DNA of 63,405 bases, taken from a virus. Its lineage: Duplodnaviria > Caudoviricetes. Below are positions 3,292-49,927 of this stretch, one piece after another. The DNA lies in IMG/VR virus record IMGVR_UViG_3300032893_000043, positions 1 through 63,405 of that record, one strand, 5' to 3'. Below the pieces are notes generated by a model. That model did not search any database. It was given only the letters and a program-made list of their open reading frames with translations, and was not told the DNA's origin. A program made the position numbers and the translations under genes. Position 1 is the first letter of the stretch, and every line of letters begins with the position of its first letter.

Positions 3292-4217
3292 CCACGCTGT
3301 TCGACTACCAGCAACAGGCGCAGCGCTTCCTTCGCGAGAAGAAGCAGGATCTGATCAACCCACAAGACTTGGTTGTTTACATCAACCGGGCGCGTCGCGA
3401 AGTCGCGATGCGAACGCAGTGCATTCGCGTTCTGACGCAGGTCAGCGCACCGATCGTCAGCGCAACTGTCATCACGCCAGGCTCGGGTTATAGCAATCTT
3501 CCGGTGATCGCGATCACGCCGCCGGATTTTCCGAGCGGCACGGGAGCGTTTCCGAATGGCGCGCAAGCGACGGCGCAGGCCATCGTGCAGAATGGGACGA
3601 TCGCCGCGGTCGACATCGTCAATGGCGGCTCGGGGTATTTTCAGCCGCTGGCGACGGTGACGGATTCGACGGGGACTGGTGCGTCGATATCGCTTTATAC
3701 GGGGCCGGTGAATCAGCTCAACGTGGCCCAAGAAGTCTACCCGTTTTCCGGCGTGTATCTTGGTGCAAATCCCGGCGTCAAATCAGTATTTGCGGTGCAG
3801 GGCATCAGTGTTATCTATCAAAATTACCGGTATTCGCTGCCAGTGTATAGCTTTACCGACTATCAAGCGATGATTCGGCAGTATCCGTTCCAATATCAAT
3901 ACGTTCCTACATTTGCTTCGCAGTACGGGCAAGGCACTTCCGGCTCTTTTTACGTCTATCCGTTACCGAGCCAAGTGTATCAATACGAGCTTGATTGTTA
4001 TTGTTTGCCTTCTGATCTCGCAACTAATAACGATTTTGAAGTAATACCTGACCCTTGGACCGACTCGGTTTCGTATTTCTCAGCGCATCTGGGAATGCTC
4101 GACATTCAGAATATGAACGCGGCAAAAATGTACTTGGAGTTGTTTGAAAAGCAGCTTGGCATTTACTCGCATTCCGCGCGTATCGGCCGGCGGGTCAACA
4201 TCTATGGAAGATATTAA
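3288..4217 (+). CDS. Head-tail adaptor-like protein (paralog 2) with inserted GSGY beta domain
   Basis: YINRAR and IPDPWTDSVSYFSA align with paralog 1; ATGA overlap. Confidence 0.65.
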   Translation: MTTLFDYQQQAQRFLREKKQDLINPQDLVVYINRARREVAMRTQCIRVLTQVSAPIVSATVITPGSGYSNLPVIAITPPDFPSGTGAFPNGAQATAQAIVQNGTIAAVDIVNGGSGYFQPLATVTDSTGTGASISLYTGPVNQLNVAQEVYPFSGVYLGANPGVKSVFAVQGISVIYQNYRYSLPVYSFTDYQAMIRQYPFQYQYVPTFASQYGQGTSGSFYVYPLPSQVYQYELDCYCLPSDLATNNDFEVIPDPWTDSVSYFSAHLGMLDIQNMNAAKMYLELFEKQLGIYSHSARIGRRVNIYGRY

Positions 4218-4429
4218 TGAGTTTTTGCCCACGTACCGTGAAACTTACGCGCGGCTTGACAGTAAGCGGCGTAGGCTTCTTTAGCGCTGTTGAACGAGCC
4301 GAGATTATGCCTGTATCCGTTCAGCTTAATGCCGGCGATGTAGACTCCGCGGCGCCGATCAAAACAAACGCCCTTGTACCCAGTGGCTGTCAGATCGCAA
4401 AGCGCGTTTTTGTGCCCGCGTTTCATCAC
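4214..4429 (-). CDS. Stand-alone AP2 DNA-binding domain (HNH-AP2 endonuclease remnant?)
   Basis: TGYKGV..YIAGIKLNG..NLGSFNSAKEAYAAYCQAARKFHG is the AP2 signature of phage HNH-AP2 proteins; no HNH domain present. Confidence 0.75.
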   Translation of the reverse strand: MMKRGHKNALCDLTATGYKGVCFDRRRGVYIAGIKLNGYRHNLGSFNSAKEAYAAYCQAARKFHGTWAKTH

Positions 4430-27787: not shown

Positions 27788-29383
27788 TCATATATCCCCC
27801 CGCTGGATTGCTTGTAACAGCGCGCCTTGCATCGAGGTGTTGGTCTCAAGTCGTCGGTACATTTCTTTCTCAAGCGGGTTGGACTGAACCTGCCAAACCG
27901 TTACCGGATTTTTTTGTCCTGGGCGATACACGCGCGCATTTCCTTGAATCCATAACCGCGTCTTGTCAACCGGAGCGGCGTGAATTACCGTATCTGCCAC
28001 GACGAACTCATTAATGCCGTGCGCAACTGACTGCGGGTCAAGTATCATGAGTTTGAAATCGTCCTCGCTCTCGAATGCCCGGATGATCTCTGGCCGATCT
28101 TTAACTTTCACATGGCCGTTGATGTAGCCGCACCGCCATTTCTTGTTAAATCGCTTATATAGTAAGTTTACGACACTTGTCAACCCCGCGAATATGACGA
28201 CTTTCCGGGGGGTGCCACCGATCAATTTTTCAAACATTTGCCAGCGCGGCGTAGCGTCGATCTCATGTACCAAATGCTCGTCATCGTAGACCGCTCCAAG
28301 CGACAGTTGTAGAAACTTGTTACGCGCGGAAGCCTCGTTGACGGCTGATATTTTTTTGCCGCTACGCATCGTGATTTGCATCGTGCGCTTAAGCAGCGCC
28401 ATCTGCTTTTTTTGATCTTCAGTCAACTCGACAACAGCCGGCAAAATTTGAATCCCCGGCGCGTCTTTCCAAGTTTCTGCGAGAGAAAAACGAACCACAG
28501 GAACGAGAAGCCGCCGCGCAAGGTCGTAGCCTTCCTTTTTCGGTATCCACTTGAAATTTGTCACTTGAATCATCGTCTCGCGCCGGAAACCGGTGAAGCT
28601 CTTACCCATGGCGTTGTTGACGAGTTTTGCCAAGCCGTAAGCATCGGTTGGTACTTGCGCTACAGGTGTCCCGGATAATTCCCAAAGATAAGGACGTTTG
28701 TTAAAAATTAGCTGCGCAATGCGATGCCGCTTGGTACTAGCGTCGATATAGGCATCGGCTTCGTCAGCAATGATGATTTTAATGCCATCATCCTCGTAAA
28801 GCGCTTTAGAGAAACCGTCGAGTGACAGACCTTTTCGTGTGTGAGCCCCGACACCAAGACCGTCCTGATTGATGATCGAGAAGTCAGCTTTTTTGTTGAG
28901 AAGATTGATTCGCTTCTCAGCCGAACCATGAAGTATTTCGAATGACCGATGCCCGAGGAAACTCGAAAAAATATTTTTTGCCCACACGACCTCCAGAACG
29001 TTGAGCGGTGCGACGATAAGCGCCCGGTAACCGGGAAACGTTCGCATTAGCCATTCGGCGGCCCACAGAGCTGGTAAAGTCTTTTTGGTGCCGGCGTCAG
29101 ATAGGTTGAAACATCGCGGGTGCATGACCTGGAAATTGGTCATTACCTTTTGATGCCATTCCGGCGTCTTACCTGGCTCGATCGGCCAATCGTAATTGGC
29201 GTCGGTGATAATAGGCATCACCGGATAATTCAACCAACGCAAGACCTGACTGTTTCGCAGCGTGCGCGGCACCGCGACGTAATTGCCGTTGAGCTGTTTG
29301 GCCTCGGGGATGTGCTGCAGGACCAACGACGACGGCTGGTCGTAAATCAGAAGGTTGCGCGGCTGGTCGTAGAAAAAGTTCAT
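27788..29383 (-). CDS. SNF2-like superfamily 2 helicase
   Basis: DAGTKKT (variant Walker A), LIVAP, IIADEA, LSGTP and HGIN..QGNARVYRPGQ motifs. Confidence 0.85.
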   Translation of the reverse strand: MNFFYDQPRNLLIYDQPSSLVLQHIPEAKQLNGNYVAVPRTLRNSQVLRWLNYPVMPIITDANYDWPIEPGKTPEWHQKVMTNFQVMHPRCFNLSDAGTKKTLPALWAAEWLMRTFPGYRALIVAPLNVLEVVWAKNIFSSFLGHRSFEILHGSAEKRINLLNKKADFSIINQDGLGVGAHTRKGLSLDGFSKALYEDDGIKIIIADEADAYIDASTKRHRIAQLIFNKRPYLWELSGTPVAQVPTDAYGLAKLVNNAMGKSFTGFRRETMIQVTNFKWIPKKEGYDLARRLLVPVVRFSLAETWKDAPGIQILPAVVELTEDQKKQMALLKRTMQITMRSGKKISAVNEASARNKFLQLSLGAVYDDEHLVHEIDATPRWQMFEKLIGGTPRKVVIFAGLTSVVNLLYKRFNKKWRCGYINGHVKVKDRPEIIRAFESEDDFKLMILDPQSVAHGINEFVVADTVIHAAPVDKTRLWIQGNARVYRPGQKNPVTVWQVQSNPLEKEMYRRLETNTSMQGALLQAIQRGDI

Positions 29384-34722: not shown

Positions 34723-36570
34723 TCACTTGACATACCTTTCTGACATCACAGCGTCCGCGTCGAGAGGAATTCCGGGGAGCCAAACAGGTACGCGCTTCAA
34801 CTCGGCTTTGCAAACCTCAAGATGGCGTTCTTCGTTGCCGTCTTTCTTGATCAGCACTACGAGCTCGTCATGCGTCGTCGTCACGATCCGATAACCCATT
34901 GCGATCAAGCGTAGCATACAGTCGGACATGACGACGCGCGCGAGAGCTTGAATTAAATTTTCAACAAGCTTTGCGCCGTAGAGCTTAGACCAGCCTTTGC
35001 GCGTCTTGATACGCCAGTAGGAATCGTCAGTTTCGTTATCTCGATAATACTCAATAGAACCGAATTGTAAAGGGCAACCGTTCGGCAGCCAGATTTTTCC
35101 GTCCTTGATGACGGTTGGCCCCCACTCGATCGGCGGCCCACCGGCAAGACGCGCCAGCATACGCCCGCCAGTTCCCCACAGGTCGACAACGTTTGGATGC
35201 GTATCGCGGTAGGCGCCACGAGCTTTCAAGCCTTCAGCCGACGTCAGAATAATCTTTGCTTTAGTTCGCAGCGTCGCACGAATCTTCTCGCCACCCGATC
35301 CGTAGCCGGCCTGCAGCTCCAGCACCTTGCCGACATTTCTCTCGGTCGGGTGCTTTTCCTTGGTGACAGGAAAACCATAAAATTCGCTGGCGACGTTCAC
35401 ATAAGGATCGCGACCATCGCGGAAATTCTCGATCACGTCCCACTGACCGGCAACGAAATTGAGCAAGCGACACTCGATTTGCGAAGCGTCGATCGCACCT
35501 AGCAAATATCCTTCCGGCGCCAGAATGGCTTCGCGAATATTCAGCCCGCCATCATCCGCGGGAAAGTCCGGGTCGCTCTTTTTAAGATTCTGAAAGTTAC
35601 TTCCGTCTCCACCGGACCACCGTGTTGTATGAGCGCCATACATGCGCAGATAGACGCACAAAGGTCCTCGACGAGCCATCCAGCCCAAGGTCTCGGCGCG
35701 CGTTTGCAGCAGTGTCGACTTGATCCCAAGCCGCGCCTCGGCAAGTGTCCTGATTCGCTCATCTTCGTCCTCCAACAAATCCTGCATGAACGGGTCGGTC
35801 TTGGCGAAAGCCCATATTTGCTTGTCGGGGTTGGTCGGCGACGACTTTTTGCCAGGCTCAATTCCCTCGGCGCGCAGCAGTTCGGCAAACTTGTCGCTCG
35901 ACGACAATTCTTTGGGATCTACACCGAGACTAGCGACGCGCTGCTGCTTGGCATCGTTCTCACTTTTCCAGATGCGCCCCAGCAAGTCCATGTCAGCACG
36001 CAAACACGGCTCGCTGAACATCTTGATGGTCATGTCGATGATCGGCAGCTCGCTGCGCGGAAAGCCTGCCTGGAGCAACATGCCGAATAGCTTCCAAATG
36101 CTCTCGACTTCGTCGCACGCTCCCTCGGCAATTTGTTGCTGCACGTCGTTTGACAACTCGTTCCAATGCTTGCCGTCAAAGGCGCTGTATGGAGTTTTCT
36201 TCGCCGGCAAACCAAACTGTGCGCGTACCGAGTCGAGGCTGACGCCGATGTGATTGCCAAGCAGCAGCCGCGCCATGGCAAGCGTGCAACCAATCATTTT
36301 GGGATGCACGTCGTAATGAAAACTTTCTATGCCGGCGTCAAACTGCGCATGATGGTGCACCATGAAGGTGTCGGACCAATCCTCTTGCGCGAGGATATAA
36401 CGTGCCTGGCGCTCGTCGTACCAGCGTGCGGGCGTGTCGGCGGACCACTTGATGGCGACGCCGTGCGCTTCGAAGCGCTTGTCGCGTAAGTACGCTTCGG
36501 TCGATAATTTCGACAGCGTGAAATCTTTGGAGCTGAAGAACGTCTCCCAGTCGGCAACAACCAATCTCAT
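34723..36570 (-). CDS. DNA polymerase family A with 3'-5' exonuclease
   Basis: DWET and HHAQFD exonuclease motifs; TTRWSG; motif A DASQIECR; motif B RNVGKVLELQAGYG; motif C HDE. Confidence 0.9.
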   Translation of the reverse strand: MRLVVADWETFFSSKDFTLSKLSTEAYLRDKRFEAHGVAIKWSADTPARWYDERQARYILAQEDWSDTFMVHHHAQFDAGIESFHYDVHPKMIGCTLAMARLLLGNHIGVSLDSVRAQFGLPAKKTPYSAFDGKHWNELSNDVQQQIAEGACDEVESIWKLFGMLLQAGFPRSELPIIDMTIKMFSEPCLRADMDLLGRIWKSENDAKQQRVASLGVDPKELSSSDKFAELLRAEGIEPGKKSSPTNPDKQIWAFAKTDPFMQDLLEDEDERIRTLAEARLGIKSTLLQTRAETLGWMARRGPLCVYLRMYGAHTTRWSGGDGSNFQNLKKSDPDFPADDGGLNIREAILAPEGYLLGAIDASQIECRLLNFVAGQWDVIENFRDGRDPYVNVASEFYGFPVTKEKHPTERNVGKVLELQAGYGSGGEKIRATLRTKAKIILTSAEGLKARGAYRDTHPNVVDLWGTGGRMLARLAGGPPIEWGPTVIKDGKIWLPNGCPLQFGSIEYYRDNETDDSYWRIKTRKGWSKLYGAKLVENLIQALARVVMSDCMLRLIAMGYRIVTTTHDELVVLIKKDGNEERHLEVCKAELKRVPVWLPGIPLDADAVMSERYVK

Positions 36571-36917
36571 AGCTCTTGTATCCGCCAAGTTGAGCCCGGT
36601 CCCGGATGGCTGGCCTGGACACGCAGCTGCACATGCGCAATGATTTTGTTGAGACAGCGAATCATGACGTGGACGCTCTGGTTGGCGCATAAGGGCGCCG
36701 CGCCGCCGCGGTAGACCTCCTGCACGATCTCGTTGAGTGTCAGCGGCATGCGCTTTCTATAGAGCGCGCGGAACACGGCGTATTGCCCGAACGACAGCGC
36801 AACCGCCTTGCCGTGACGCATGATGACGCGAAACGAGTCGTCGACCGTGAATGTCAGCGGCGGAAGTTTTTGGCCGCAGCACGGACAATCCGTCGAGGCA
36901 CGCGTTTTGCGGCTCAC
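36567..36917 (-). CDS. Winged-helix (OmpR C-terminal type) regulator with CPCCG
   Basis: VALSFGQYAVFRAL..SVHVMIRCLNK. Confidence 0.65.
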   Translation of the reverse strand: MSRKTRASTDCPCCGQKLPPLTFTVDDSFRVIMRHGKAVALSFGQYAVFRALYRKRMPLTLNEIVQEVYRGGAAPLCANQSVHVMIRCLNKIIAHVQLRVQASHPGPGSTWRIQEL

Positions 36918-38266: not shown

Positions 38267-40579
38267 ATGTCCCTCATTGAATACGCTCTGCAATACGCCG
38301 GCCGTGGCTGGCATGTGTTCCCGCTCCGTCCTCGCGCCAAGCTTCCGTTACTCTCCAAAAAGTCCGGCGGTAAGGGTTTTCACGACGCCACGTCGGATCC
38401 CGGCCAAGTCACCGCCTGGTGGTCGCGGGCGCCCCAAGCCAATATCGGGCTCGCAACCGGCGCGTCCGGCCTCGTGGTGCTCGACGCCGATGGACCAGCG
38501 GGGTTAGCGCAGCTTAAAGAGCTCGCGGCGCCGCACGGCGGCTTACTTCGCACGCTGACGGCGCGCACCGGGCGCGAAGGCGGGTTCCACCTGTACTACC
38601 GCGGAACGGGTATAGCCAGCTGGCAGGACAACCGCAAAGGCGACACCAAGCAATGGCATTTCGACATCCGCGGCTCCACCGGTTATGTGATCCTGCCGCC
38701 CTCGATCCACCCCAGCGGCGCGCAGTACGCGTGGGTCGACGCGGCGCAGCCGATCGCCGAGGCGCCGGCCTGGCTCGGCCCCCTCCTTGCCTCGCTCCGC
38801 GGTTCCGTGCACACTGCGGCCGCGGGCAATCCCGCCCGTGACACTGAAACGCTTGCGGCCTTGAGCCCGTCTGCCCCGTCGTCCCGGACGGTGCCGGCGG
38901 GCTCTTTTGCGTCCGGACGCGGGCTTGCGGCCCGCTCGGTCGCGAACCTCAGTTCCGGGCCTGCTTTCAGCGAATCCGAGGCCGATCGTCTGTTTTCGGC
39001 ACTATCGGCGATAGACGCCGCAACCGATGGCGCGACCTGGGCCAGCTACGGCGCGGCGCTGCACGATCTGAAGTGGATTGTGAACGGTGTCGACGAAGGC
39101 TTTGAAATTTTTGATGAATGGTCTAGCACCTCGACAGGTAAGGGTCCGGGTAATGGGGAGTACAAAGGTCGCGCGGACCTAGAGAAGCGCTGGGTCAGTT
39201 TTGATAAGGAATACAACGGAGTACGCAAGACAATTGCGTCAATTTATAAGGACGCAATGGATCGCGGGTGGCAATACGATCCAACACCGCCGCAAGAGCA
39301 AAAAGTCAACGGCAACCATAGCTTAGAAGTCTTACCTCCCACATTTCAACAAGCGGCGTTCGCAAGCCCGATCATCTGGCCCGATCGCGACCAGTGGGGG
39401 CGGCCCAAAGCGACCTGCCGCAATGCCCGCGCCGCCATTCGGCACATGGGCCTGACATGCGAGCACGACCGGTTTCACGACAAGTTGATCATCGGCGGAC
39501 AGGCGATCGAGCAATGGGCCGGCGAACTCACGGACAACACGACGCACATGCTCCGGGTCACCATCGCCCAGCGATACAATCTCGATCCGGGCAACACCAA
39601 CACTTTCGACGCCGCGGTCCAGGAATGCCTGCAGGACAGCTTTGATCCGGTTGCCGACTATCTCGACGGGTTGACTTGGGATGGCGTGCCAAGGCTCCGC
39701 ACTTGGCTTGCGACCTACATGGGCGCCGCGGACACGCCGTTAAATGCCGCCATTGGGGGCCTGATCCTGATTGCGGCCGTGCGCCGCGTGCGGCAACCCG
39801 GATGCAAATTCGACCAGATCCTCGTGCTTGAAGGCCCGGAAGGGCGCGGCAAGTCGTCGGCGATCGAGATTTTGGCGGGCCAAGAGAACTTTTCGGACCA
39901 GACGATATTGACCGCCGACGACAAGGGCCAGCAAGAAGCAATCAGCGGCGTGTGGCTTTACGAGATCGCGGACCTGGCCGGCATGTCAAAGGCCGACACC
40001 GAGAAGGTCAAGGCGTTTTGTTCCAGGACCGTGGATCGCGCGCGGCCGGCTTACGGGCGCACCAGGCAGGACAAGCCGCGGCGCTGTGTCTTCATTGCGA
40101 CGACGAACCACGCGACGTTCCTCAAATCGCAAACCGGCAATCGGCGGTTCTGGCCGGTCCAAACGGGCAGGGTTGACCTGGAAGCGTTGCGGCGAGACCG
40201 GGACCAGCTTTGGGCGGAAGCCAACGCGATCGAGCGGCGCGGCGTGTCGCTGTTCTTGCCGGAAGGGCTTTGGCAAGAGGCCGCGGCGATACAGGACGCG
40301 CGGCGCGACGCGGACCCGTGGGAAGACATTCTAGCAGACGTCGAAACGCATAAAGCGACGTCGAAAAAACCGGCGGCAGACGGGCACGGAATGGAGTACC
40401 GGATCACAAGCCGGGACGTGCTGGAAACCGTGCTTAGACTGCCTTTGGACAAGCTGAATGATGTAACTGCGAAACGGGCCGCGCTGGCACTTCGAAGGCT
40501 CGGATGGGACGGACCAAAGCCATTGCGAAGCGAAAAAATTGTGGCGAAAGGTTTTACAAAAAAAGCAGAAGACGTGTAA
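38267..40579 (+). CDS. Primase-polymerase / PriCT-2 / VirE-type helicase fusion
   Basis: GWHVFPL, ANIGLATG..LVVLDAD, GFHLYY; PGCKFD, LEGPEGRGKS Walker A, TGNRRFWPV. Confidence 0.9.
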   Translation: MSLIEYALQYAGRGWHVFPLRPRAKLPLLSKKSGGKGFHDATSDPGQVTAWWSRAPQANIGLATGASGLVVLDADGPAGLAQLKELAAPHGGLLRTLTARTGREGGFHLYYRGTGIASWQDNRKGDTKQWHFDIRGSTGYVILPPSIHPSGAQYAWVDAAQPIAEAPAWLGPLLASLRGSVHTAAAGNPARDTETLAALSPSAPSSRTVPAGSFASGRGLAARSVANLSSGPAFSESEADRLFSALSAIDAATDGATWASYGAALHDLKWIVNGVDEGFEIFDEWSSTSTGKGPGNGEYKGRADLEKRWVSFDKEYNGVRKTIASIYKDAMDRGWQYDPTPPQEQKVNGNHSLEVLPPTFQQAAFASPIIWPDRDQWGRPKATCRNARAAIRHMGLTCEHDRFHDKLIIGGQAIEQWAGELTDNTTHMLRVTIAQRYNLDPGNTNTFDAAVQECLQDSFDPVADYLDGLTWDGVPRLRTWLATYMGAADTPLNAAIGGLILIAAVRRVRQPGCKFDQILVLEGPEGRGKSSAIEILAGQENFSDQTILTADDKGQQEAISGVWLYEIADLAGMSKADTEKVKAFCSRTVDRARPAYGRTRQDKPRRCVFIATTNHATFLKSQTGNRRFWPVQTGRVDLEALRRDRDQLWAEANAIERRGVSLFLPEGLWQEAAAIQDARRDADPWEDILADVETHKATSKKPAADGHGMEYRITSRDVLETVLRLPLDKLNDVTAKRAALALRRLGWDGPKPLRSEKIVAKGFTKKAEDV

Positions 40580-42703: not shown

Positions 42704-43333
42704 GTGGCCGAGCGCACAATCGAAATTCCCGAAATCAAACTTGATCGCATGACCGTGAACGTCGTTGGTACGTCTCCGCTGCTAACCAATCGCTTCGGCG
42801 AGAACGCGATTGCTTCGATCGAGAACAAACAGCAGAAAAAAGCGAAGGGTGTGAAGGAGGCGCGCGATCCCGAGGCGGAATTTCTTGAGAAGCTGCACGT
42901 CATAAAGGCTGGCAAGACACCGTTGGAAGGTACGTTCGGTTATCCGTCGATCGGTATCAAAAAATGCCTGGTGGTTGCCGGCGGCCGTTTTGCCGACGAA
43001 AAAATGACGCATCTACGCGGCGCCATCAACATTCTTGGAAGCTTGATCGAGATTCGATCGCCGGCTCCGACGATGCGTACCGACACTGTTCGTTTGCAGG
43101 GTGGCGTCACTAGCATCGCCTATCGCCCGCAGTTTTGGCCGTGGGAGATGGAAATACCGGTCGTGTTTAACGCCGGCATTATCGGCCCTGCGCAGATTCT
43201 CAACCTTTTCCAGATTGCTGGATTTGCTGTAGGCTTCGGCGCGTGGCGTCCCGAGCTGAACGGCGTGTTCGGTCAATTTGTTTTGAAGAATTCCGGCGAG
43301 GTCTCGACGAAAGAGAAGACCAAGGCGGGATAA
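42704..43333 (+). CDS. RAMP/Cas7-like RNA-binding protein (Vipr-like effector)
   Basis: N-terminal VxGTSPLLxNRF strand, YPSIGIKKC, and C-terminal Gly-rich loop AGFAVGFGAWRPELNGVFGQF; AGGAG RBS; directly followed by the periodic array. Confidence 0.7.
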   Translation: MAERTIEIPEIKLDRMTVNVVGTSPLLTNRFGENAIASIENKQQKKAKGVKEARDPEAEFLEKLHVIKAGKTPLEGTFGYPSIGIKKCLVVAGGRFADEKMTHLRGAINILGSLIEIRSPAPTMRTDTVRLQGGVTSIAYRPQFWPWEMEIPVVFNAGIIGPAQILNLFQIAGFAVGFGAWRPELNGVFGQFVLKNSGEVSTKEKTKAG

Positions 43334-43336
43334 AAA

Positions 43337-43792
43337 GCCAAGAGCAGAGTCGATTTGATAGGCGTTGCACAGACCATAAGACCGCAGACGCGATGCAGAA
43401 AAGTACGGCAAACACCAGATGTGCTTTGCAAGGACGTGAGGTCAACTGAAGCGAAAAGTTTATTTTGTTGGTTTGCCAAAAGAGGAGTGCAGCACGGAAT
43501 AGTCAGGACAAGTCCTGCAGCGATGTTAGTTGAAATGAAAAGTTTAATCCATTTGCCATGTGAAAAGAGCAGCCGCGTGAACATGTGACACGACGACACC
43601 AGATGTTACCGGAATAGAAATGAAAAGTTTGTTTGATCCATTTGCCAGAAGAGAACACTCGATGTGCGGCGCTTTGCGTTGAGGCGATAGGAAAACACAA
43701 CAAATGAAAAGTTTCATTTTTGATTTGGCAGAAGAGAACAATAGCTGTGCAGCGTTTTGAGTCGATAGCAGTTGCAAACAAATGAAGTGAAA
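43337..43792 (+). ncRNA. Array of six pentamer-periodic tracts (xG[A/C/T]-NN); putative guide RNAs
   Basis: Tracts at 43341, 43397, 43481, 43561, 43650 and 43733, each of 11-14 pentamers; tracts 2-5 end in GAAAAGTTT and are followed by a T-rich..TTTG[C/G]CA linker. Confidence 0.8.
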
Positions 43793-44850
43793 TGTCTATT
43801 TCTCTCAAAGAGTATTTCGCGCTCGCCGGCTCTAATTTCACAAACGACGATGCTAGGGTCATTGGGCCGGTACTGCAAGAATTGGTGCACGCCGGGCAGT
43901 CGCGACCAAACGAGATTGTCGACGCCGCGCGCTCGACGAATTCCCCGCTGCACGAATATTTCGAGTGGAATGACCAGCGCGCTGGGCAGCTGTATCGCGA
44001 AGGCCAGGCCCGCGACATGGTGCAGGCTATTCGCGTCCGCGTCGTTCCGCGCGAGCAACCCAAAGAACCGCGGCAGTATAAAGTTACGGTTCAGAAGACA
44101 GAGTGGAACACCCTGAGCGACGTCACCGTTCGTAACGAGATCGATGTTCTTGATGGCGCGAGTCTGGCGCTACGCGCGCTTGACGAATGGATACGAGTAT
44201 TCGGTACGCTGGCACAAGCCAAGGAAGTTGCTGATATCTTGCAGCCGATCCTTAATCAGATTTCTGAATTTAAAGAGGAATGTCGCGGCGAGATCCCACC
44301 GAATGACGTGGTTGCGGTTTTTCAAGATTTGCAGCAGATCGAGCAAGCTTGTCAGAAGCTGATCGGGCTACGTGACTATGGCGAGCAGACACAGTATCTG
44401 ATTGAAGCGATCGACGATGCGTGGAAGGCGTATGGGCAGCTGGTTGAAGATAAGAAAGCGCGCTTGACGGTTGTCGAACAGGAGAACGAGGAGCTACGCG
44501 AGAAGATCGATTTTTTGGAGCGCTTGTTTATTGGCGACCAGCTTATGCCTCGGCAATTGCGGCTGACGAAGCAGGAAGGCAAAGTTGTTGGTGCGTTGCT
44601 AAACAACAAGACGGTGAACCGTGAAGCCATCCACTATATTTTGTATTCGGACAAACCGGATGCTGACGAGGCGGACATTAAGATTGTTGACGTTCTGGTT
44701 TGTAAAATTCGTCCGAAGCTAGACCGGTTCGGCATCAAGATCGAAAGCCTTTGGGGCGTAGGTTACCAGATGCCTGATGACTCGCGTAAGCGGCTGCAAG
44801 GTTTGATCGAGGCTGACAAATCGCACCCGCTTGAGGAAGGGATGATCTAA
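43792..44850 (+). CDS. Array-associated protein fused to a CtrA/OmpR-like winged-helix domain
   Basis: N-terminal IVDAAR..SPLHEYFEWND..YR..QAR domain; C-terminal LTKQE..KIVDVLVCKIRPKL..IESLWGVGY. Confidence 0.7.
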   Translation: MSISLKEYFALAGSNFTNDDARVIGPVLQELVHAGQSRPNEIVDAARSTNSPLHEYFEWNDQRAGQLYREGQARDMVQAIRVRVVPREQPKEPRQYKVTVQKTEWNTLSDVTVRNEIDVLDGASLALRALDEWIRVFGTLAQAKEVADILQPILNQISEFKEECRGEIPPNDVVAVFQDLQQIEQACQKLIGLRDYGEQTQYLIEAIDDAWKAYGQLVEDKKARLTVVEQENEELREKIDFLERLFIGDQLMPRQLRLTKQEGKVVGALLNNKTVNREAIHYILYSDKPDADEADIKIVDVLVCKIRPKLDRFGIKIESLWGVGYQMPDDSRKRLQGLIEADKSHPLEEGMI

Positions 44851-44884
44851 AATAATATCTCCCCGGTAGTTGCCACCACTACAA
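44851..44884 (+). repeat. 34-bp direct repeat copy 1 (contains operator copy 2, 44866-44882)
   Basis: 33/34 identical to 45943..45976. Confidence 0.9.
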
Positions 44885-44905
44885 ACAGTCTGGTACTCTC
44901 GTAAA

Positions 44906-45943
44906 ATGTCGCTGGCTTACTACAACGAGATCGACCCATACTGTGCGCAGTGGCTGCGAAATCTCATCGCAAAAAATCTGATCGCGCCCGGTGTGGTCGA
45001 TGAAAGGTCGATCCTTGATGTCAAACCTTACGAGCTCGAACCCTACACCCAGTGCCACTTCTTCGCCGGTATCGGCGGATGGTCTTACGCATTGCGACTC
45101 GCGGGTGTTGCCGATCATCGAGAAATTTGGACTGGAAGTTGTCCTTGCCAGCCTTTCTCCACGGCAGGCCGCCGCCGCGGGTTTGATGACGAGCGACACT
45201 TGTGGCCATACTGGAGATATCTCATTGCGCAGCGACGTCCTCCAACAATCTTTGGAGAGCAGGTTGCGTCGGCAGCTGACTGGCTCCGACTTGTGCGAAG
45301 TGACCTGGAAGCCCTGGACTACGCCGTGGGGGCAGTCCCTATCGAAGCCGCGAGCGCGGGTGCGGACCACCTTAGAGATCGGTTCTGGTTTATGGCCTAC
45401 CATACGCGCCAACAAGTGGGGGCCGCCGGACAGTCACGGGAACGTAGCGATGTGGCCCACAGCAGCAGCAGCACGCGATTACAGGAGCGAGAGCGCGACG
45501 GAGGAATTCAACGAGAAACACTGGGCGCACAGCCGCGGCAAGACGTTGCCAATGCAGGCGCTGCACGCGACATGGGCGACGCCAACTTCTTTGAGCGGTG
45601 GTTCGGAAACCAGCAATCCGCCTGGCAACAGCCGGAACAACAACGAGATCAGACGCCACGCTTTGTGGGCAACGGCAGCTGCCCAGGAGGCGGGCGGAAC
45701 GGCGGAACAGTTTTTGGAACGCAAGCGCAAGGCAGTGGCGAACGGCTCGACATTGGGCGTCAGTCTGACGAGCCTGAACCTTCAGGCTGGATCATCGGTG
45801 CCGACGGAAAAGCGCGGCGCGTTAAATCCGGAATTCGTTTGCTGGTTGATGGGTTTCCCAATCGCGTGGGTCTCCTGCGGGGTTTCGGTAACGCGATTGA
45901 CCCGCGGCCGGCGGCGCAATTCATCAAAGCCGCGCTCGACTGA
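44906..45943 (+). CDS. DNA cytosine-C5 methyltransferase
   Basis: FFAGIGG (I), SCPCQPFS (IV), GEQV (VI), HLRDR (VIII), GFGNAI (X). Confidence 0.9.
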   Translation: MSLAYYNEIDPYCAQWLRNLIAKNLIAPGVVDERSILDVKPYELEPYTQCHFFAGIGGWSYALRLAGVADHREIWTGSCPCQPFSTAGRRRGFDDERHLWPYWRYLIAQRRPPTIFGEQVASAADWLRLVRSDLEALDYAVGAVPIEAASAGADHLRDRFWFMAYHTRQQVGAAGQSRERSDVAHSSSSTRLQERERDGGIQRETLGAQPRQDVANAGAARDMGDANFFERWFGNQQSAWQQPEQQRDQTPRFVGNGSCPGGGRNGGTVFGTQAQGSGERLDIGRQSDEPEPSGWIIGADGKARRVKSGIRLLVDGFPNRVGLLRGFGNAIDPRPAAQFIKAALD

Positions 45944-46208: not shown

Positions 46209-46841
46209 ATGTCCCTTTACGAAACTCTCGATCTCACTAGCGACCCGCCGCCCGACGCCGCAGCCATTAAGCGCGCTTACAAGCGCAAGGCCAAAATGAC
46301 CCATCCCGACCGCGGTGGCAAAGTCGAAGATTTCCAGAAAGTCTCGCGCGCTTATCTCGTGCTTAGCGATCCCGTGCGTCGCGCCAAGTACGACGCGACG
46401 GGAGACATCCCCGAGATCACGCCGGAAACGGCCCCGCTGAATTTGCTGGTGCAGTTCTTCGTGACCGTGGTGCAGATGCATTGCGCCGGTCAGGGGCCGG
46501 ATCCGCTGACCACCGATCTGATCAAGCTGGCGCGCGACCAGTTCAAGACCGACATTGCCAACGCCGAGAAGGAGATCGTCAAGATCAAGCGCAGCATCAA
46601 GGTGTGGCAGAAGGTCGAAGCGAAGTTTGGCAAGGCCAAGAAGGGCGCGATGCCGGTGACGATCAAGCGCGCGATGTTGGCGCAAGTGGCGCCGCTCGAA
46701 GCGCATTTGCAGACCATGCAGAGCCAGATCGAGCTGCGCAACGACGCGATGAAGTTGCTTGACGGCTACACGTTCGATTTCGATGCGTCTCCGGCCACGC
46801 CTACGAATTTGTCGGGAAGCTGGATACGCTTCACGAGTTAA
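46209..46841 (+). CDS. DnaJ-domain protein
   Basis: LYETL..IKRAYKRKAKMTHPDRGG..AYLVLSDP..R..YD. Confidence 0.9.
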   Translation: MSLYETLDLTSDPPPDAAAIKRAYKRKAKMTHPDRGGKVEDFQKVSRAYLVLSDPVRRAKYDATGDIPEITPETAPLNLLVQFFVTVVQMHCAGQGPDPLTTDLIKLARDQFKTDIANAEKEIVKIKRSIKVWQKVEAKFGKAKKGAMPVTIKRAMLAQVAPLEAHLQTMQSQIELRNDAMKLLDGYTFDFDASPATPTNLSGSWIRFTS

Positions 46842-47020: not shown

Positions 47021-47179
47021 TTGTCTGACGACTATCCGACGTCCGTAAGATTTTCGAAGCAGCTCAAGGCCGACCTGAAAAGGTTTGCCAAGGAGCAAGG
47101 CTGCTCGGTGACGTGGCTCTTGAACCACATCGCCGAGGAATGGGTGGAGCATAAAAAACAAGAGGGTAAGGGCAAATGA
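47021..47179 (+). CDS. Ribbon-helix-helix (Arc/CopG-like) regulator
   Basis: 52 aa MSDDYPTSVRFSKQLKADLKRFAKEQGCSVTWLLNHIAEEWV; TTG start after GAGG; not in the ORF track. Confidence 0.7.
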   Translation: MSDDYPTSVRFSKQLKADLKRFAKEQGCSVTWLLNHIAEEWVEHKKQEGKGK

Positions 47180-48231
47180 AAACCGCGCTGGTCACCACCA
47201 CTATCAACGTTCCGACCGTCCTCGCGCTGTATCGCAAGCTCGACCCAAGCGTGAAATTTTTTGTCGCCGCCGACGAGAAGACGCCGCTCGATGCCTACAG
47301 CTTCTGCGCCGACATCCCCGATTGCGAGATGTATTCGCCCGATCGGCAGAAGGAGCTTGGTTACGAGTGCTCCCCGCTGCTTGGTTGGAACAACGACAGT
47401 CGGCGGAACATCGCGCTGCTCGAAGCGCTGAAGTGGGGCGCTGAACTGATCATCTCGATTGATGACGATATGATCCCGATGAACGCGGACTACTTTGCGA
47501 CATTCAAAAAGCTGTTTTTTGGCCGGCGCCAGGATTTCCACGATCCAGGAATTTTTCATAGCTATACGCCAGCTTATTCTGGCCTTCAACTCGGCACGCC
47601 TCTCTACTGGCTTGACGCCGGGCAGCTCACGGTACCGATCGCCAAGCAGCGCGGCCTCCCGCTCGATCACCTCGCCGTCGCGAGTGCCGGCGCCGCGGTC
47701 GGCGTCAATATCGGCATCGCGCAAGGCGTCATTCTCGGCGTGCCGGATACCGACGCCGCGACTGCCGCGACAAGCCAACCGATGGTGCATAGCGCAAGCG
47801 ACATCCTGCGCAACGGGTTCGTGGCGCATCCGCAAGCGCGCGCCGTGGTGAACTCGCAATTCACCGCGTTCCGCCGCGAGCTCGCCCCGGCCTTCGCCCA
47901 GTTTTACGAGCACCAGGGGCGCAACACCGATATCCTCGCCAGTCTTTTGATGCGCCGCATCGCCGCCGAGCGCGGGCTGTTCACCTATTTCGGTCCTCCA
48001 TTTGGATTCCATAATCGCCGGCCGCGGCGGATCCTGCCGGATTTGCGCGCCGAGATGTACGGGCTGGAGCGTATCGAGGCGTGGGCCGACTATCTGGAGC
48101 GCGCACCGCTGTCTTCGGCGGCATCCGTCGCTGTCCAATGTCACTCGTTGATGCGCGGCTTTGCCGGTTTCGACGGCGATCTCAAGGCGTGCGCGGACGC
48201 GTTCTATTCGGATGTGGAGAAGGTGCTGTGA
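47176..48231 (+). CDS. GT-A glycosyltransferase / UDP-sugar mutase-like (RGP/STELLO-like)
   Basis: VTTTI, DEKTP, RRNIALLEA..IISIDDD. Confidence 0.65.
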   Translation: MKTALVTTTINVPTVLALYRKLDPSVKFFVAADEKTPLDAYSFCADIPDCEMYSPDRQKELGYECSPLLGWNNDSRRNIALLEALKWGAELIISIDDDMIPMNADYFATFKKLFFGRRQDFHDPGIFHSYTPAYSGLQLGTPLYWLDAGQLTVPIAKQRGLPLDHLAVASAGAAVGVNIGIAQGVILGVPDTDAATAATSQPMVHSASDILRNGFVAHPQARAVVNSQFTAFRRELAPAFAQFYEHQGRNTDILASLLMRRIAAERGLFTYFGPPFGFHNRRPRRILPDLRAEMYGLERIEAWADYLERAPLSSAASVAVQCHSLMRGFAGFDGDLKACADAFYSDVEKVL

Positions 48232-48641
48232 CCTTGTTCAGCATCGACATGGTGGTGCAGACCTGTGTCAATAAGGATTGCGGCATCAGTTTTGCGGTCC
48301 CATCGTGGTGGGACAAAGGGAAACGAGAAACGCGTACAACATTCTATTGCCCGAACGGGCATCCGCAGTCGTATTGCGCTGAGAGCGACCTTGATAAAGC
48401 GCGGCGCGAACGTGACATTGCGCGCCAGCAGGTTGCTCGCGCCGAGCAGGAAGCCGCCGAAGCGCTTGCTCGCGCGCAAAAGGCCGAGCGCGCCGAAAAG
48501 CGTTTGAAGAAGCGAGCTTCGGCCGGCACCTGTCCGTGTTGTCAACGCACATTTTCAAACATGGCGACGCATATGAAGAACCAGCATCCCAATTTTGTTG
48601 CAGAAGGCGGCGCCAAGGTCGTGCCGATCAAGCGCGCATGA
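48228..48641 (+). CDS. Zinc-finger protein with coiled coil
   Basis: C..C, FYCPNGH, CPCC..H....HP. Confidence 0.65.
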   Translation: MTLFSIDMVVQTCVNKDCGISFAVPSWWDKGKRETRTTFYCPNGHPQSYCAESDLDKARRERDIARQQVARAEQEAAEALARAQKAERAEKRLKKRASAGTCPCCQRTFSNMATHMKNQHPNFVAEGGAKVVPIKRA

Positions 48642-49927
48642 ACCGCGTCGCTATCGCTTTCCTCACTTGTGACCGTGTCGAGCTGACCAAGCGCTCGATC
48701 GAGCCGCTGCTGCAGCCCAACAAGTTCGACTTGCACTGGGTCGATGGCAGTAAGACTGGCGAAGGCATTGATCTGCCGCGCGAGTACAGCCAGCACAAGT
48801 TCTCGACGCATTACGGCGTGGTCGGCGGCTCGGGCGTGGCGATCGTCTACGCCCTGACGACGTTGCTGAAGAAGGGTCTCGGCGAGGGCACCGCCTACGA
48901 TTACATCGGCCTCGTCGAGAACGACGTGCTGCTCGATCCCGACTTCTTCGAGCCGATGATGGCGCTGTTCGAGCAGGGCCGGGCTGAAGGGATGGAAGTC
49001 GGCGCCGTATCCGCGCGGGCTTATGAGGACCGCATCCTGATCCAGCGCGACGGTTATGGCGTCATGCACAATCTCGGCGCCGGCATGATCGTGTTCTCGC
49101 GCAACGCCGCAAAACTGGTGCTGCAGCATTATCGCACCGTGTGGACCACCGAGAACCGGCTGCTGTTCGCCCAGCTGTCGGGAATCGACATCGGCAAGTA
49201 TTGGGCGTTCCGCGGCAACGAGAATTTTTTGGTCGCTGACTGGAATTTTGACCGGGTGTTGGCGTCGTATGGCTATGCTTCGCTGGCACTGACGCCGAAC
49301 AAGGCAACCATGCTCGATCAGGATATTGCCCCGCTCGGTTTGAAATATGCAGACGGCAATTTCGCGCTCGCGAGGAATCCGGAAGCGTTCAATATCTACC
49401 GGCGCAATCTCAAGCGTGTCCAGATCGGTGAGTGGCAGCCGGGGGTTCACGAGCCGTTTTTTCGCGACGATCAGGGCCAGATGATTTTTGCCCATCAGAT
49501 CCCGCAGATTGGCGGCGTGTATAGCGGCAACTGGCGCATCCGCGATTTTCTTCCCTTCGGCCCCTTCGTGTGGAAGGCGGGCGCCGCGGTGCAGGATGAA
49601 GCGTGTTCGACGCAGATGCCTGGTGAGTATCCGACGCTGACGGTGCCCATCTCGGGGCCGTGCTCGTTGATGATCTCCGGCGGCGAGCGGGGCGGCGTGA
49701 TGCGGATCGAGGACGAGCAGTCGGGCTTCGTCGCTGAGCCGGCGCTGCCTGCCGAGTCTGTCAATGGACAACTGATGCAGATCAGCGTGCCGTCCGGCGC
49801 CGGATACCGGGAGATCAAGTTGACGGCGCTGGGCCGGGGCTTATGTTTCTTCGGCGTCAAGACGCGCGATCCGCAGCCGGTGCTGCCGCATGTCCGTTTT
49901 GATTTTGATACGTTACCGCCGCCATGA
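48638..49927 (+). CDS. GT2-like glycosyltransferase
   Basis: IAFLTCDR, WVDGS, LVENDV (DxD-like). Confidence 0.6.
   Translation: MNRVAIAFLTCDRVELTKRSIEPLLQPNKFDLHWVDGSKTGEGIDLPREYSQHKFSTHYGVVGGSGVAIVYALTTLLKKGLGEGTAYDYIGLVENDVLLDPDFFEPMMALFEQGRAEGMEVGAVSARAYEDRILIQRDGYGVMHNLGAGMIVFSRNAAKLVLQHYRTVWTTENRLLFAQLSGIDIGKYWAFRGNENFLVADWNFDRVLASYGYASLALTPNKATMLDQDIAPLGLKYADGNFALARNPEAFNIYRRNLKRVQIGEWQPGVHEPFFRDDQGQMIFAHQIPQIGGVYSGNWRIRDFLPFGPFVWKAGAAVQDEACSTQMPGEYPTLTVPISGPCSLMISGGERGGVMRIEDEQSGFVAEPALPAESVNGQLMQISVPSGAGYREIKLTALGRGLCFFGVKTRDPQPVLPHVRFDFDTLPPP

What the first reader, a model, noticed from the sequence alone, without database searches (positions are those of the whole stretch)
43341..43395. 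Tract 1 dinucleotides decode to the IS1595 transposase HTH motif
Seen: NN = GC GT TT TA GT AC CC AG GC CG TG. With one skipped base between pairs, the reverse complement is CAn CGn GCn CTn GGn GTn ACn TAn AAn ACn GCn = [HQ]-R-A-L-G-V-T-Y-[KN]-T-A. Established: IS1595-family transposases carry QLxRxLGVTYKTAW. The skipped base falls on the wobble position, so synonymous escape would be largely blocked. Inference: a guide against IS1595 elements.
Basis: partly seen in the sequence, partly recalled or inferred. Interest (0 to 1): 0.95.

Follow-up and report, generated by a model that had tools for sequence, protein, structure and literature searches.

The report
Phage VIPR guide RNA against transposases
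The tract is the variable part of a phage guide RNA of the recently described VIPR kind, whose two-letters-in-five code spells, wobble base skipped, a conserved motif of IS1595 transposase genes, so the phage most likely silences insertion-sequence genes.

Summary
Window 43341-43395 is 11 pentamers whose last two bases, read antisense with one target base skipped, spell [HQ]RALGVTYKTA. That pattern has 14 exact hits in genome contigs (about 0.07 expected), all in frame in IS1595-family transposases. In 201 genomes the 13-unit pattern hits 20 places; two rearranged controls hit 0.

The tract starts at the stop codon of a 209-aa protein (42704-43333). Its model matches Cas7/Csm3 RAMPs and its profile matches the Vipr protein of phage SUSP1 (hhalign 97.5%). 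The locus is therefore a VIPR system: Vipr, an accessory gene, and tandem-pentamer vrRNAs read by a 1-nt-skip rule. Three 2026 bioRxiv preprints describe this kind.

The last tract of two related phages spells MRRFTRLTNAF of IS1-like transposases (16 places in 15/201 genomes, control 0). The window's own last tract matches CDEIWSFVY of the same family on the other strand.

Possibly new features: transposases as targets, and an N-G-A/C scaffold in place of GGY, with both G1-reading residues replaced. Four inner tracts have no identified target.

The parts
42704..43333 (+). vipr gene: a 209-aa RAMP (Cas7-like) protein. Its stop codon TAA (43331-43333) lies inside the first pentamer of the guide tract.
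   Evidence: The AF2 model has pLDDT 79.6 and pTM 0.74. Foldseek against PDB gave 58 hits at E<=1e-3, the top ones Csm3, Cmr4, Cas7-11 and type VII Cas7. hhalign of profile A2 against the SUSP1 Vipr ORF gave Prob 97.5, E 8.3e-12. The protein matches PHROG phrog_4652, of unknown function. There are at least 1552 unnamed relatives.
43331..43400 (+). Variable tract of vrRNA 1a: 14 pentamers of form [N G A/C N1 N2]. N1N2 are antisense to codon positions 1-2 of (L)HRALGVTYKTAWF in IS1595 transposases. The finding (43341-43395) is units 3-13.
   Evidence: In the mismatch-tolerant scan the tract scores 28/28 nt, z 13.3.
43397..43461 (+). Tract 1b: 13 pentamers, shifted by +1 nt relative to tract 1a and running into the first tail. 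No target identified.
   Evidence: Phase analysis is. The tract scores at null level against the transposase panel and has 0 exact 10-unit hits in viral contigs.
43448..43484 (+). Conserved element, copy 1 (GAAxxGAAAAGTTT..N..TTTGCCAnAAGAG). I read it as the 3' tail of the preceding vrRNA plus the first units of the next one.
   Evidence: The repeat families are. The alignment of 13 copies from 3 phages is A4. No conserved pairing is predicted.
43476..43535 (+). Tract 2: about 12 pentamers. No target identified.
   Evidence: 0/201 genomes at <=2 mismatches; 0 in viral contigs; null-level panel score.
43532..43569 (+). Conserved element, copy 2.
43561..43620 (+). Tract 3: about 12 pentamers. 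No target identified.
   Evidence: 0/101 genomes, with 1 control hit; 0 in viral contigs.
43617..43653 (+). Conserved element, copy 3.
43645..43704 (+). Tract 4: about 12 pentamers. No target identified.
   Evidence: 0/101 genomes; 0 in viral contigs.
43703..43737 (+). Conserved element, copy 4.
43723..43787 (+). Tract 5: 13 pentamers. N1N2 have the same sense as codon positions 1-2 of CDEIWSFVYAK in IS1-like transposases, so the guide would pair with the template DNA strand.
   Evidence: There is a 9-unit exact in-frame run with L156. 7-10 of 13 units and 15-23 of 26 nt match in 7 of 7 IS1-like genes that hold the motif. The tract scores 23/26 nt, z 9.5, against a null maximum of 18. Against this, the 12-unit pattern at <=3 mismatches hit 0/101 genomes.
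43792..44850 (+). vap-like accessory gene (352 aa): a conserved N-terminal 'YFEWND..AA..R..QAR' domain, a helical middle, and a C-terminal OmpR-type winged helix.
   Evidence: A homologue lies next to the vipr homologue in 11 of 11 related viral loci compared. Pfam Trans_reg_C matches at E 4.3e-6. In the AF2 model only the N-terminal 1-88 is confident. Foldseek found nothing at E<=1e-3. It is not similar to the ORF next to SUSP1 vipr (hhalign Prob 0.2).

Best explanation
Window 43331-43400 is the specificity-bearing part of a VIPR guide RNA (vrRNA). It is encoded on the + strand immediately after the vipr gene of a complete 63.4-kb phage genome with direct terminal repeats.

The mechanism is taken from the VIPR preprints and inferred for this locus. 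One Vipr protomer binds each pentamer. The first three bases (here N-G-A/C, published GGY) are sequestered by the protein. The last two bases (NN) are presented for pairing. The filament binds double-stranded DNA and pairs NN with two target bases, extruding every third target base, which gives an R-loop triplex that blocks transcription.

Shown here:
- The NN of 13-14 consecutive pentamers are the exact antisense of codon positions 1-2 of the helix-turn-helix motif (L)HRALGVTYKTAWF of IS1595-family transposases.
- The skipped base falls on the wobble position and is not read.
- The last tract of the same array matches an IS1-like transposase motif on the opposite strand.

Inferred: the phage uses this array to silence insertion-sequence transposase genes, or elements that carry them, in its host. 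Wobble skipping gives it reach across diverged copies.
For: 1. Sequence and decode are verified.
2. There are 14 exact genome hits, all in-frame IS1595 transposases.
3. The match extends by 2-3 units that were not used in the selection.
4. The pattern hits 20 places in 17/201 genomes, against 0 for the backwards control and 0/201 for the reversed-order control.
5. A blind prediction held. I decoded the last tract of L015/L016 as [IM]RR[FL]TRLT[KN]A[FL]. It then hit 16 places in 15/201 genomes, 8 of them exact, with control 0. All 8 fetched hits read MRRFTRLTNAF in ORFs with DDE_Tnp_IS1.
6. Window tract 5 matches IS1-like CDEIWSFVY in sense orientation, z 9.5.
7. The adjacent protein has a RAMP/Cas7-like model and is homologous to SUSP1 Vipr. 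The SUSP1 ORF was identified by its residues H17, K33, R138, D177 and W178, which the cryo-EM preprint names.
8. G shows 5-nt periodicity in the window, L015 and L016. GG-type pentamer arrays lie next to 7 more distant vipr relatives.
9. Among homologous tracts, the NN positions vary least: 5/90 variable columns against 26/135 at positions 1-3, p=0.003.
10. There is no self-target in the phage.
11. The published rule and mechanism are in 10.64898/2026.04.26.720920 and 10.64898/2026.04.26.720927.
Against: - Nothing here shows that the RNA is made, where its ends are, or that it binds Vipr. No RNA data were available.
- The scaffold is not the published GGY. Position 1 is G in only 9/69 units and position 3 is A in 45/69. 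Binding by this Vipr is therefore inferred from homology, not from a match to the characterised motif.
- Four of the six tracts of the window (1b, 2, 3, 4) have no identified target.
- Tracts 1a and 1b together make 26-27 units before the first tail, more than the published 9-16, so the transcript architecture is unresolved.
- The host is unknown, so it is not shown that the phage ever meets these transposase genes.
- The target genes are mostly single-copy in the genomes hit. I found no exact terminal inverted repeats of 14 nt or more around them. They may not all be active insertion sequences.
- The tract-5 pattern found nothing at <=3 mismatches in 101 genomes.
Confidence: 0.85

Rival explanations
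1. It is the same VIPR guide, but the real target is not insertion sequences as such. It is a competing mobile element (satellite, prophage or island) that carries an IS1595-type or IS1-type transposase-like gene as its own integration or regulatory gene. That would fit the published role of VIPR in conflict between viral elements.
For: The preprint reports natural targets on satellites and prophages, often regulators. The target genes are mostly single-copy per genome. No exact inverted repeats were found. Neighbours of the target genes are mostly unknown proteins, one of them an HTH_3/Peptidase_M78 pair of the type found in mobile elements.
Against: The ORFs have the full IS1595 architecture: zinc ribbon and DDE domain in 9/10, and the NCBIfam equivalog domain above cut-off in 3/3. 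The motif-level match spans three diverged IS1595 subgroups and several bacterial classes. That fits a family-wide aim better than a single element. The tract-1 pattern has no hit in viral contigs.
Confidence: 0.25
2. The guide acts on RNA, as an antisense to the transposase mRNA in the manner of type III CRISPR, rather than on DNA.
For: Tract 1a and the last tract of L015/L016 are antisense to the mRNA. The protein's closest solved folds are RNA-targeting Csm3/Cmr4.
Against: Window tract 5 has the same sense as the mRNA and could pair only with the template DNA strand. The preprints report targets on both strands and dsDNA binding, and report that ssRNA substrates give mostly incomplete filaments.
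Confidence: 0.07
3. The match is chance or a by-product. The array is a protein-binding or structural periodic RNA or DNA element with no guide function, for example a TRAP-like ring-binding site, a packaging site or an origin.
For: Four of six tracts have no target. No conserved tail structure is predicted. My first idea, on seeing an 11 x 5 nt period, was a TRAP-like ring-binding site.
Against: 28 of 28 informative bases match, the null maximum being 19. There are 14 exact hits where 0.07 are expected. Both controls give 0. The code replicated on two further tracts against a second transposase family. NN positions are the most conserved among orthologous tracts. The neighbouring gene is a Vipr homologue.
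Confidence: 0.01

Closest known systems
VIPR (Viral Interference Programmable Repeat) systems, type II prototype of Escherichia phage SUSP1 (bioRxiv 10.64898/2026.04.26.720920; structures in 10.64898/2026.04.26.720927)
   Same: - The system is phage-encoded.
- It has a small (~20 kDa) RAMP protein homologous to SUSP1 Vipr (hhalign Prob 97.5). The G2-contacting residues are kept: R141 and W181 for SUSP1 R138 and W178.
- An accessory gene lies next to it.
- Guide tracts of tandem pentamers lie in the flanking intergenic DNA on the strand of vipr.
- Specificity lies in the last two bases of each pentamer.
- The 1-nt skip falls on the wobble base, and targets lie on either strand.
- There is no self-target.
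   Different: - The scaffold is N-G-A/C, not GGY.
- Both residues that read G1 in SUSP1 (H17, D177) are replaced, by N29 and A180. The same holds in 5/5 members of this clade, while 7/7 relatives with GG-type arrays keep H and D/E.
- The accessory protein is unrelated to the ORF beside SUSP1 vipr and carries an OmpR-type winged helix.
- The tail sequence differs and no structure is predicted for it.
- The identified targets are transposases of two IS families, not a satellite or a prophage regulator.
- The first tract is followed by a second tract shifted by 1 nt before any tail.
Class 1 CRISPR-Cas effector backbones (Cas7/Csm3/Cmr4 filaments on crRNA)
   Same: The predicted fold is RAMP-like, with a C-terminal glycine-rich loop. 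A protein filament imposes a fixed period on guide-target pairing.
   Different: The period is 5 nt of guide to 3 nt of target with only 2 paired, instead of 6 to 6 with 5 paired. The guide itself carries a periodic sequence signature. There is no CRISPR repeat-spacer array. No other cas gene appeared among the 16 neighbouring ORFs scanned.
TRAP (trp RNA-binding attenuation protein) binding sites: 11 (G/U)AG triplets spaced by 2-3 nt (recalled, not from a call)
   Same: An RNA signal with a 5-nt period and about 11 units.
   Different: There is no TRAP-like protein here. The information lies in the spacers rather than the triplets, and those spacers match coding sequences elsewhere. I rejected this as an explanation.

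Membership tests
VIPR system | Vipr protein: a small RAMP homologue (RRM core, G-loop, thumb) | tested here: met
   The AF2 model plus Foldseek gave 58 PDB hits at E<=1e-3, led by Csm3, Cmr4 and Cas7. The profile matches the SUSP1 Vipr ORF with hhalign Prob 97.5, E 8.3e-12 over 168 columns, including GxGxWRP. That ORF holds H17, K33, R138, D177 and W178 as named in the structure preprint.
VIPR system | vrRNA variable region of 9-16 tandem pentanucleotide repeats in the intergenic DNA flanking vipr | tested here: met
   G has 5-nt periodicity, chi2/df 5.0-6.7, in the window, L015 and L016. Tracts of 10-14 in-phase units were parsed. Caveat: tracts 1a and 1b together exceed 16 units.
VIPR system | Constant part of each repeat is GGY (the preprint allows 'or a related consensus'; its fig. 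S17 was not visible to me) | tested here: not met
   In 69 window units, position 1 is G in 9, position 2 is G in 50, and position 3 is A in 45, C in 16 and T in 7. Only the second G is kept. This is a related consensus, not GGY.
VIPR system | Specificity in NN, read with a 1-nt skip; the skip falls on the wobble base; targets on either strand | tested here: met
   The wobble base is not read. Other skip lengths were not searched.
VIPR system | Invariable 3' tail with conserved structure after the repeat tract | tested here: inconclusive
   A conserved element of about 35 nt follows each tract, in 13 copies across 3 phages. RNAalifold predicts 0 pairs, and the RNA ends are unknown.
VIPR system | Adjacent vap accessory gene with a DNA-related function | tested here: met
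   A conserved neighbour is present in 11/11 related viral loci compared. It has a C-terminal winged helix. It is unrelated to the SUSP1 neighbour. I could not establish which of vap1-6 it is, if any.
VIPR system | Mostly encoded by viruses or proviruses | tested here: met
   The window is a complete IMG/VR record with direct terminal repeats. Only 1 weak hit was found in 401 alphaproteobacterial genomes.
VIPR system | vrRNA is expressed and co-purifies with Vipr, and the complex binds dsDNA and represses transcription | not testable with these tools
   No RNA run was listed.
CRISPR-Cas (type III-like) | CRISPR repeat-spacer array together with Cas10, Cas5 and Cas11 partners | tested here: not met
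   The units are 84-85 nt apart and have periodic interiors, not spacers. No cas family was found in the neighbouring ORFs scanned.
IS1595 transposase (the target, not the window) | Zn-ribbon_IS1595 plus DDE_Tnp_IS1595 domains | tested here: met
   10/10 hit ORFs have the DDE domain and 9/10 the zinc ribbon. 3/3 are above the NCBIfam transpos_IS1595 cut-off.

The most novel reading that the evidence does not exclude
This phage clade carries a VIPR variant that is new in two linked ways.

1. Its guides are aimed at the most conserved protein motifs of insertion-sequence transposases: the IS1595 helix-turn-helix, and the IS1-like catalytic D and C-terminal regions. They lie on both DNA strands. 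This would be a virus-encoded, wobble-blind, family-wide silencer of transposons, a target class not mentioned in the text I could read of the three VIPR preprints.

2. Its scaffold code has drifted from GGY to N-G-A/C, together with loss of both protein residues that read the first G (H17 to N, D177 to A). That would be a natural example of co-evolution between a guide scaffold and its reader.
Probability: 0.55. Interest if true: 0.6.

Novelty: new member of a known kind. Interest (0 to 1): 0.5.

Why it matters
This is an independent confirmation, from raw sequence and public genomes only, of the noncontiguous 'two in five reads two in three' code reported for VIPR in 2026. The code predicted a second target motif before that motif was searched for.

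If the targets are what they appear to be, phages use this code against insertion sequences as well as against rival phages and satellites. Aiming at invariant protein motifs with the wobble base ignored gives one guide reach over a whole transposase family.

The altered scaffold, with matching changes in the two G1-reading residues, marks which contacts can be changed. That is of use to anyone engineering Vipr-vrRNA pairs that do not cross-talk.

Tried and rejected
- TRAP-like or ring-protein binding site, packaging site, origin iterons, or G-quadruplex (for the GG-type arrays). I considered these when I first saw the 5-nt period. I dropped them once the NN code matched coding sequences and the neighbour proved to be a RAMP.
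- Derivation of the tract from a transposase gene by insertion of two bases per codon. Rejected: the remaining base gives CAG CGT GCT CTT GGT GTA ACC TAA..., with a stop at Tyr (my reading), and the wobble base is not matched.
- Self-regulation of a phage gene. There is no match in the window. The best 5/3 run against the whole window is 7 units, which is chance level.
- Rfam. Only one sub-threshold chance hit.
- Promoter and terminator scan. Nothing above shuffles.
- Loose repeat pattern scan of viral contigs. It returned only single chance matches, so that scan was wasted.
- Inner tracts 2, 3, 4 and 1b. No target was found in 101-201 genomes at <=2 mismatches (1b was not run there). There were none in viral contigs as exact 10-unit patterns and none on the 22-gene panel.
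- The 80 metagenome loci and 8 viral loci with distant vipr relatives. They gave no run of 9 units or more against the IS1595/IS1-like panel, only six chance-level 8-unit runs.
- Accessory protein fold search. Nothing at E<=1e-3.
- Complex prediction of Vipr with the accessory protein's first 200 residues. The verdict was 'no answer', so this is no evidence either way.
- The look-up of sequencing runs. No RNA holder was listed. Two DNA rows came back, one of them possibly the source sample.
- Supplementary data of the preprints (target tables, type logos) could not be seen. They may already list transposase targets or this scaffold.
- Context of the target genes. Neighbours were uninformative and no exact inverted repeat of 14 nt or more was found.

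Full report
**The observation**

Window 43341-43395 reads AGAGC AGAGT CGATT TGATA GGCGT TGCAC AGACC ATAAG ACCGC AGACG CGATG. Their reverse complement, with one free base after each pair, is CAn CGn GCn CTn GGn GTn ACn TAn AAn ACn GCn.

- The pattern has 0 matches in the window at up to 3 mismatches and 0 in viral contigs.
- It has 14 exact matches in genome contigs. My estimate of the chance number is 0.07 (596 Gb, two strands, 22 fixed bases).
- All 14 are in frame as [HQ]RALGVTYKTA[WY], inside W..GVS..E[IL][HQ]RALGVTYKTAW.M.HRIREAM.
- Of 10 of these ORFs tested, 10 carry Pfam DDE_Tnp_IS1595 and 9 carry Zn_ribbon_IS1595. Of 3 tested, 3 pass NCBIfam transpos_IS1595.
- The record titles name Tardiphaga, Bradyrhizobium, Afipia, Xanthobacteraceae, Hyphomicrobiaceae, Parvularcula and other mostly alphaproteobacterial genomes.

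**The match is longer than reported, and it survives controls**

I wrote a script that steps 5 nt along the array and 3 nt along a target.
- Units TAAAA (43331-35) and AGCCA (43336-40) add F and W. Unit CAGAA (43396-43400) adds L.
- Of the 14 loci, 1 matches 14 units, 7 match 13, 5 match 12 and 1 matches 11.
- These extra units played no part in choosing the hits.

In 201 genomes drawn from the order of one hit genome, the 13-unit pattern at up to 3 mismatches hits 20 places in 17 genomes. The tool's backwards control hits none. The same dinucleotides in reversed unit order hit 0 of 201. On a panel of 22 transposase genes the tract scores 28 of 28 informative bases, against a maximum of 19 in 200 unit shuffles. 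That panel was itself chosen by pattern hits, so it is not independent for this tract.

**What surrounds it**

The window is a complete viral record of 63,405 bases with direct terminal repeats. The tract opens a 460-nt non-coding stretch (43331-43791) between two + strand genes. This stretch holds four copies of a conserved element of about 35 nt, 84-85 nt apart.

G shows a 5-nt periodicity through the whole stretch. Chi2/df is 5.0 at period 5, 3.1 at period 10 and 1.3 or less at every other period tested. The stretch parses into six tracts of pentamers of the form [N G A/C N N]. Over 69 units, position 2 is G in 50, position 3 is A in 45 and C in 16, position 1 is mixed, and positions 4-5 are even.

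The upstream gene (42704-43333, 209 aa) has no Pfam or NCBIfam family.
- Its AlphaFold model (pLDDT 79.6) matches Csm3, Cmr4, Cas7-11 and type VII Cas7 chains, with 58 PDB hits at E<=1e-3.
- It has a glycine-rich C-terminal loop.
- At least 1552 unnamed relatives exist in public data.

In 11 of 11 related viral loci compared, this gene lies beside a homologue of the downstream gene (43792-44850). In 7 more distant ones there are long GG-type pentamer arrays (GGCNN and the like).

**The code replicates**

Two related phages, L015 and L016, have a vipr product 91% identical to the window's. They carry a homologous first tract that spells LGVTYKTAWF (10 units) and LGVTYK (6 units).

I decoded their shared last tract before any search as [IM]RR[FL]TRLT[KN]A[FL]. 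The pattern then hit 16 places in 15 of 201 genomes at up to 2 mismatches, 8 of them exact, with control 0. I fetched 8 of these. All 8 read MRRFTRLTNAF inside ...VERxNLTxRMxMRRFTRLTNAFSKK... in ORFs that match Pfam DDE_Tnp_IS1 (8 of 8 at E<=5e-4, 4 of them above the gathering score).

The window's own last tract (43723-43787) matches the CDEIWSFVYAK motif of the same IS1-like family, but in the same sense as the mRNA.
- It has a 9-unit exact in-frame run with one gene.
- 7-10 of 13 units match in 7 of 7 genes that hold the motif.
- It scores 23 of 26 bases, against a null maximum of 18.
- Against this, its 12-unit pattern at up to 3 mismatches found nothing in 101 genomes.

Among homologous tracts of the three phages, the variable columns by pentamer position number 13, 4, 9, 3 and 2 of 45. 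The two informative positions therefore vary least (5/90 against 26/135, p=0.003). The skipped target base is complementary to guide position 3 in 56/182 cases and to position 1 in 43/182, which is close to chance.

**What it is**

[quoted passage not shown] I read its abstract, Results, Discussion, Methods section 27 and figure legends. It describes VIPR systems as follows.
- They have a small phage-encoded RAMP (Vipr), an accessory gene (vap) and vrRNAs of 9-16 YNNGG repeats followed by a 3' tail.
- The NN pair with DNA under a 1-nt skip rule, and the skip falls on the wobble base.
- Targets lie on either strand, there is no PAM, and the outcome is transcriptional repression.

Passages of 10.64898/2026.04.26.720927 describe a filament with one protomer per repeat. 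G1 is read by H17 and D177, and G2 by R138 and W178. The extruded skip base sits by K33, and the complex forms an R-loop triplex. ssRNA targets assemble poorly.

I fetched phage SUSP1. Its ORF 28474-29061 (-) has exactly those five residues and is flanked by GGTNN arrays on its own strand. The profile of the window protein and its relatives matches this ORF with hhalign probability 97.5% and E 8.3e-12, including the GxGxWRP loop. The locus is therefore a VIPR system and the finding is the variable region of one of its vrRNAs.

**How it most likely works**

Shown here:
- the periodic scaffold;
- the NN code and its targets;
- the homology of the protein;
- the absence of self-targets.

Inferred from the preprints:
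- Vipr protomers coat the + strand RNA, one per pentamer, hiding N-G-A/C and presenting NN.
- The filament invades duplex DNA of an IS1595 transposase gene at the helix-turn-helix coding stretch. It pairs 2 of every 3 bases and blocks transcription.
- Tract 5 would do the same on the template strand of IS1-like genes.

Why a phage would do this is open. It might protect its own genome from insertion, or it might silence a rival element that carries such a gene.

**Differences from the published prototype**

The scaffold keeps only the second G. The two residues that read the first G in SUSP1 are N29 and A180 in the window protein. All 5 members of its clade have N and A, while all 7 relatives with GG-type arrays keep H and D/E. 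R141 and W181, the G2 contacts, are kept.

The accessory protein is unrelated to the ORF beside SUSP1 vipr and ends in an OmpR-type winged helix. Tract 1a is followed by a second tract shifted by one base before the first tail. This recalls the 'staggered arrays' mentioned in the preprint, but it is unresolved here.

A word search of the three VIPR preprints found no mention of transposase targets, insertion sequences or IS1595.

**What remains unexplained**

Tracts 1b, 2, 3 and 4 have no target in the genomes and viral contigs searched. The host is unknown, and the vipr family is nearly absent from 401 alphaproteobacterial genomes (1 weak hit). No RNA data exist for this phage. The tail shows no predicted conserved structure.

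**Verdict**

The system is of a kind described in 2026 preprints, so this is a new member of a known kind. Two features may be new: transposase targets, and an altered scaffold with matching residue changes.

Noticed in passing
L142 3048-3451; L143 3127-3877; L145 3061-3446 and ~3950-4400; L146 3545-3668; L147 3570-3961; L149 1610-2068; L144 3702-4212: Distant relatives of the vipr gene (34-44% identity) lie beside long GG-type pentamer arrays punctuated by TTGGCAGT-like delimiters. In some loci the arrays lie on both sides of the accessory gene. None of their tracts matched the IS1595/IS1-like panel, so their targets are unknown.
   Followed up: partly
window 42704-43333, residues N29 and A180; alignment A2: The two SUSP1 Vipr residues said to read the first G of GGY (H17, D177) are N and A in the window clade (5/5). 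They are H and D/E in relatives with GG arrays (7/7). This parallels the loss of G at pentamer position 1.
   Followed up: partly
search_dna_similar hits H1-H65: tblastn finds vipr-family genes annotated 'hypothetical protein' in about 35 named phage records: 27 Mycobacterium and 5 Gordonia phage records, Listonella phage phiHSIC, Cyanophage Cy-LDV1 and Pseudomonas phage vB_Pae_LESphi2. These cultured phages could serve as experimental models. I did not inspect their arrays.
   Followed up: no
L016 3773-3827 (b_2), L015 3938-3992 (a_4), L016 3693-3742 (b_1b): These inner tracts of the related phages give weak, above-null partial matches to the transposase panel: 18/22, 17/22 and 16/20 bases, z 3.3-4.2. 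They may point to diverged transposase targets or may be noise.
   Followed up: no
window 34723-36690 (-), 38267-40579 (+), 44870-45943 (+), 46209-46841 (+): Neighbouring phage genes are a family A DNA polymerase, a primase-polymerase/VapE-like helicase, a C-5 cytosine DNA methylase fragment-like ORF and a DnaJ-domain protein. Several large ORFs (47176-48231, 48536-49927) have no family in Pfam, PHROGs or NCBIfam.
   Followed up: no
L017 3585-3773 and L018 3597-3805: Two closer relatives (64-71% identical vipr product, of the same N/A residue type) have short intergenic regions with no clear 5-nt periodicity. L018 has two copies of a different repeat. Their guide RNAs, if any, were not located.
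   Followed up: no
L150 3298-4407 (+), beside the IS1-like gene: An HTH_3 plus Peptidase_M78 (IrrE-like) protein, a pair typical of mobile-element regulators, lies next to one IS1-like target gene. This is a hint that some targets sit in larger mobile elements.
   Followed up: no
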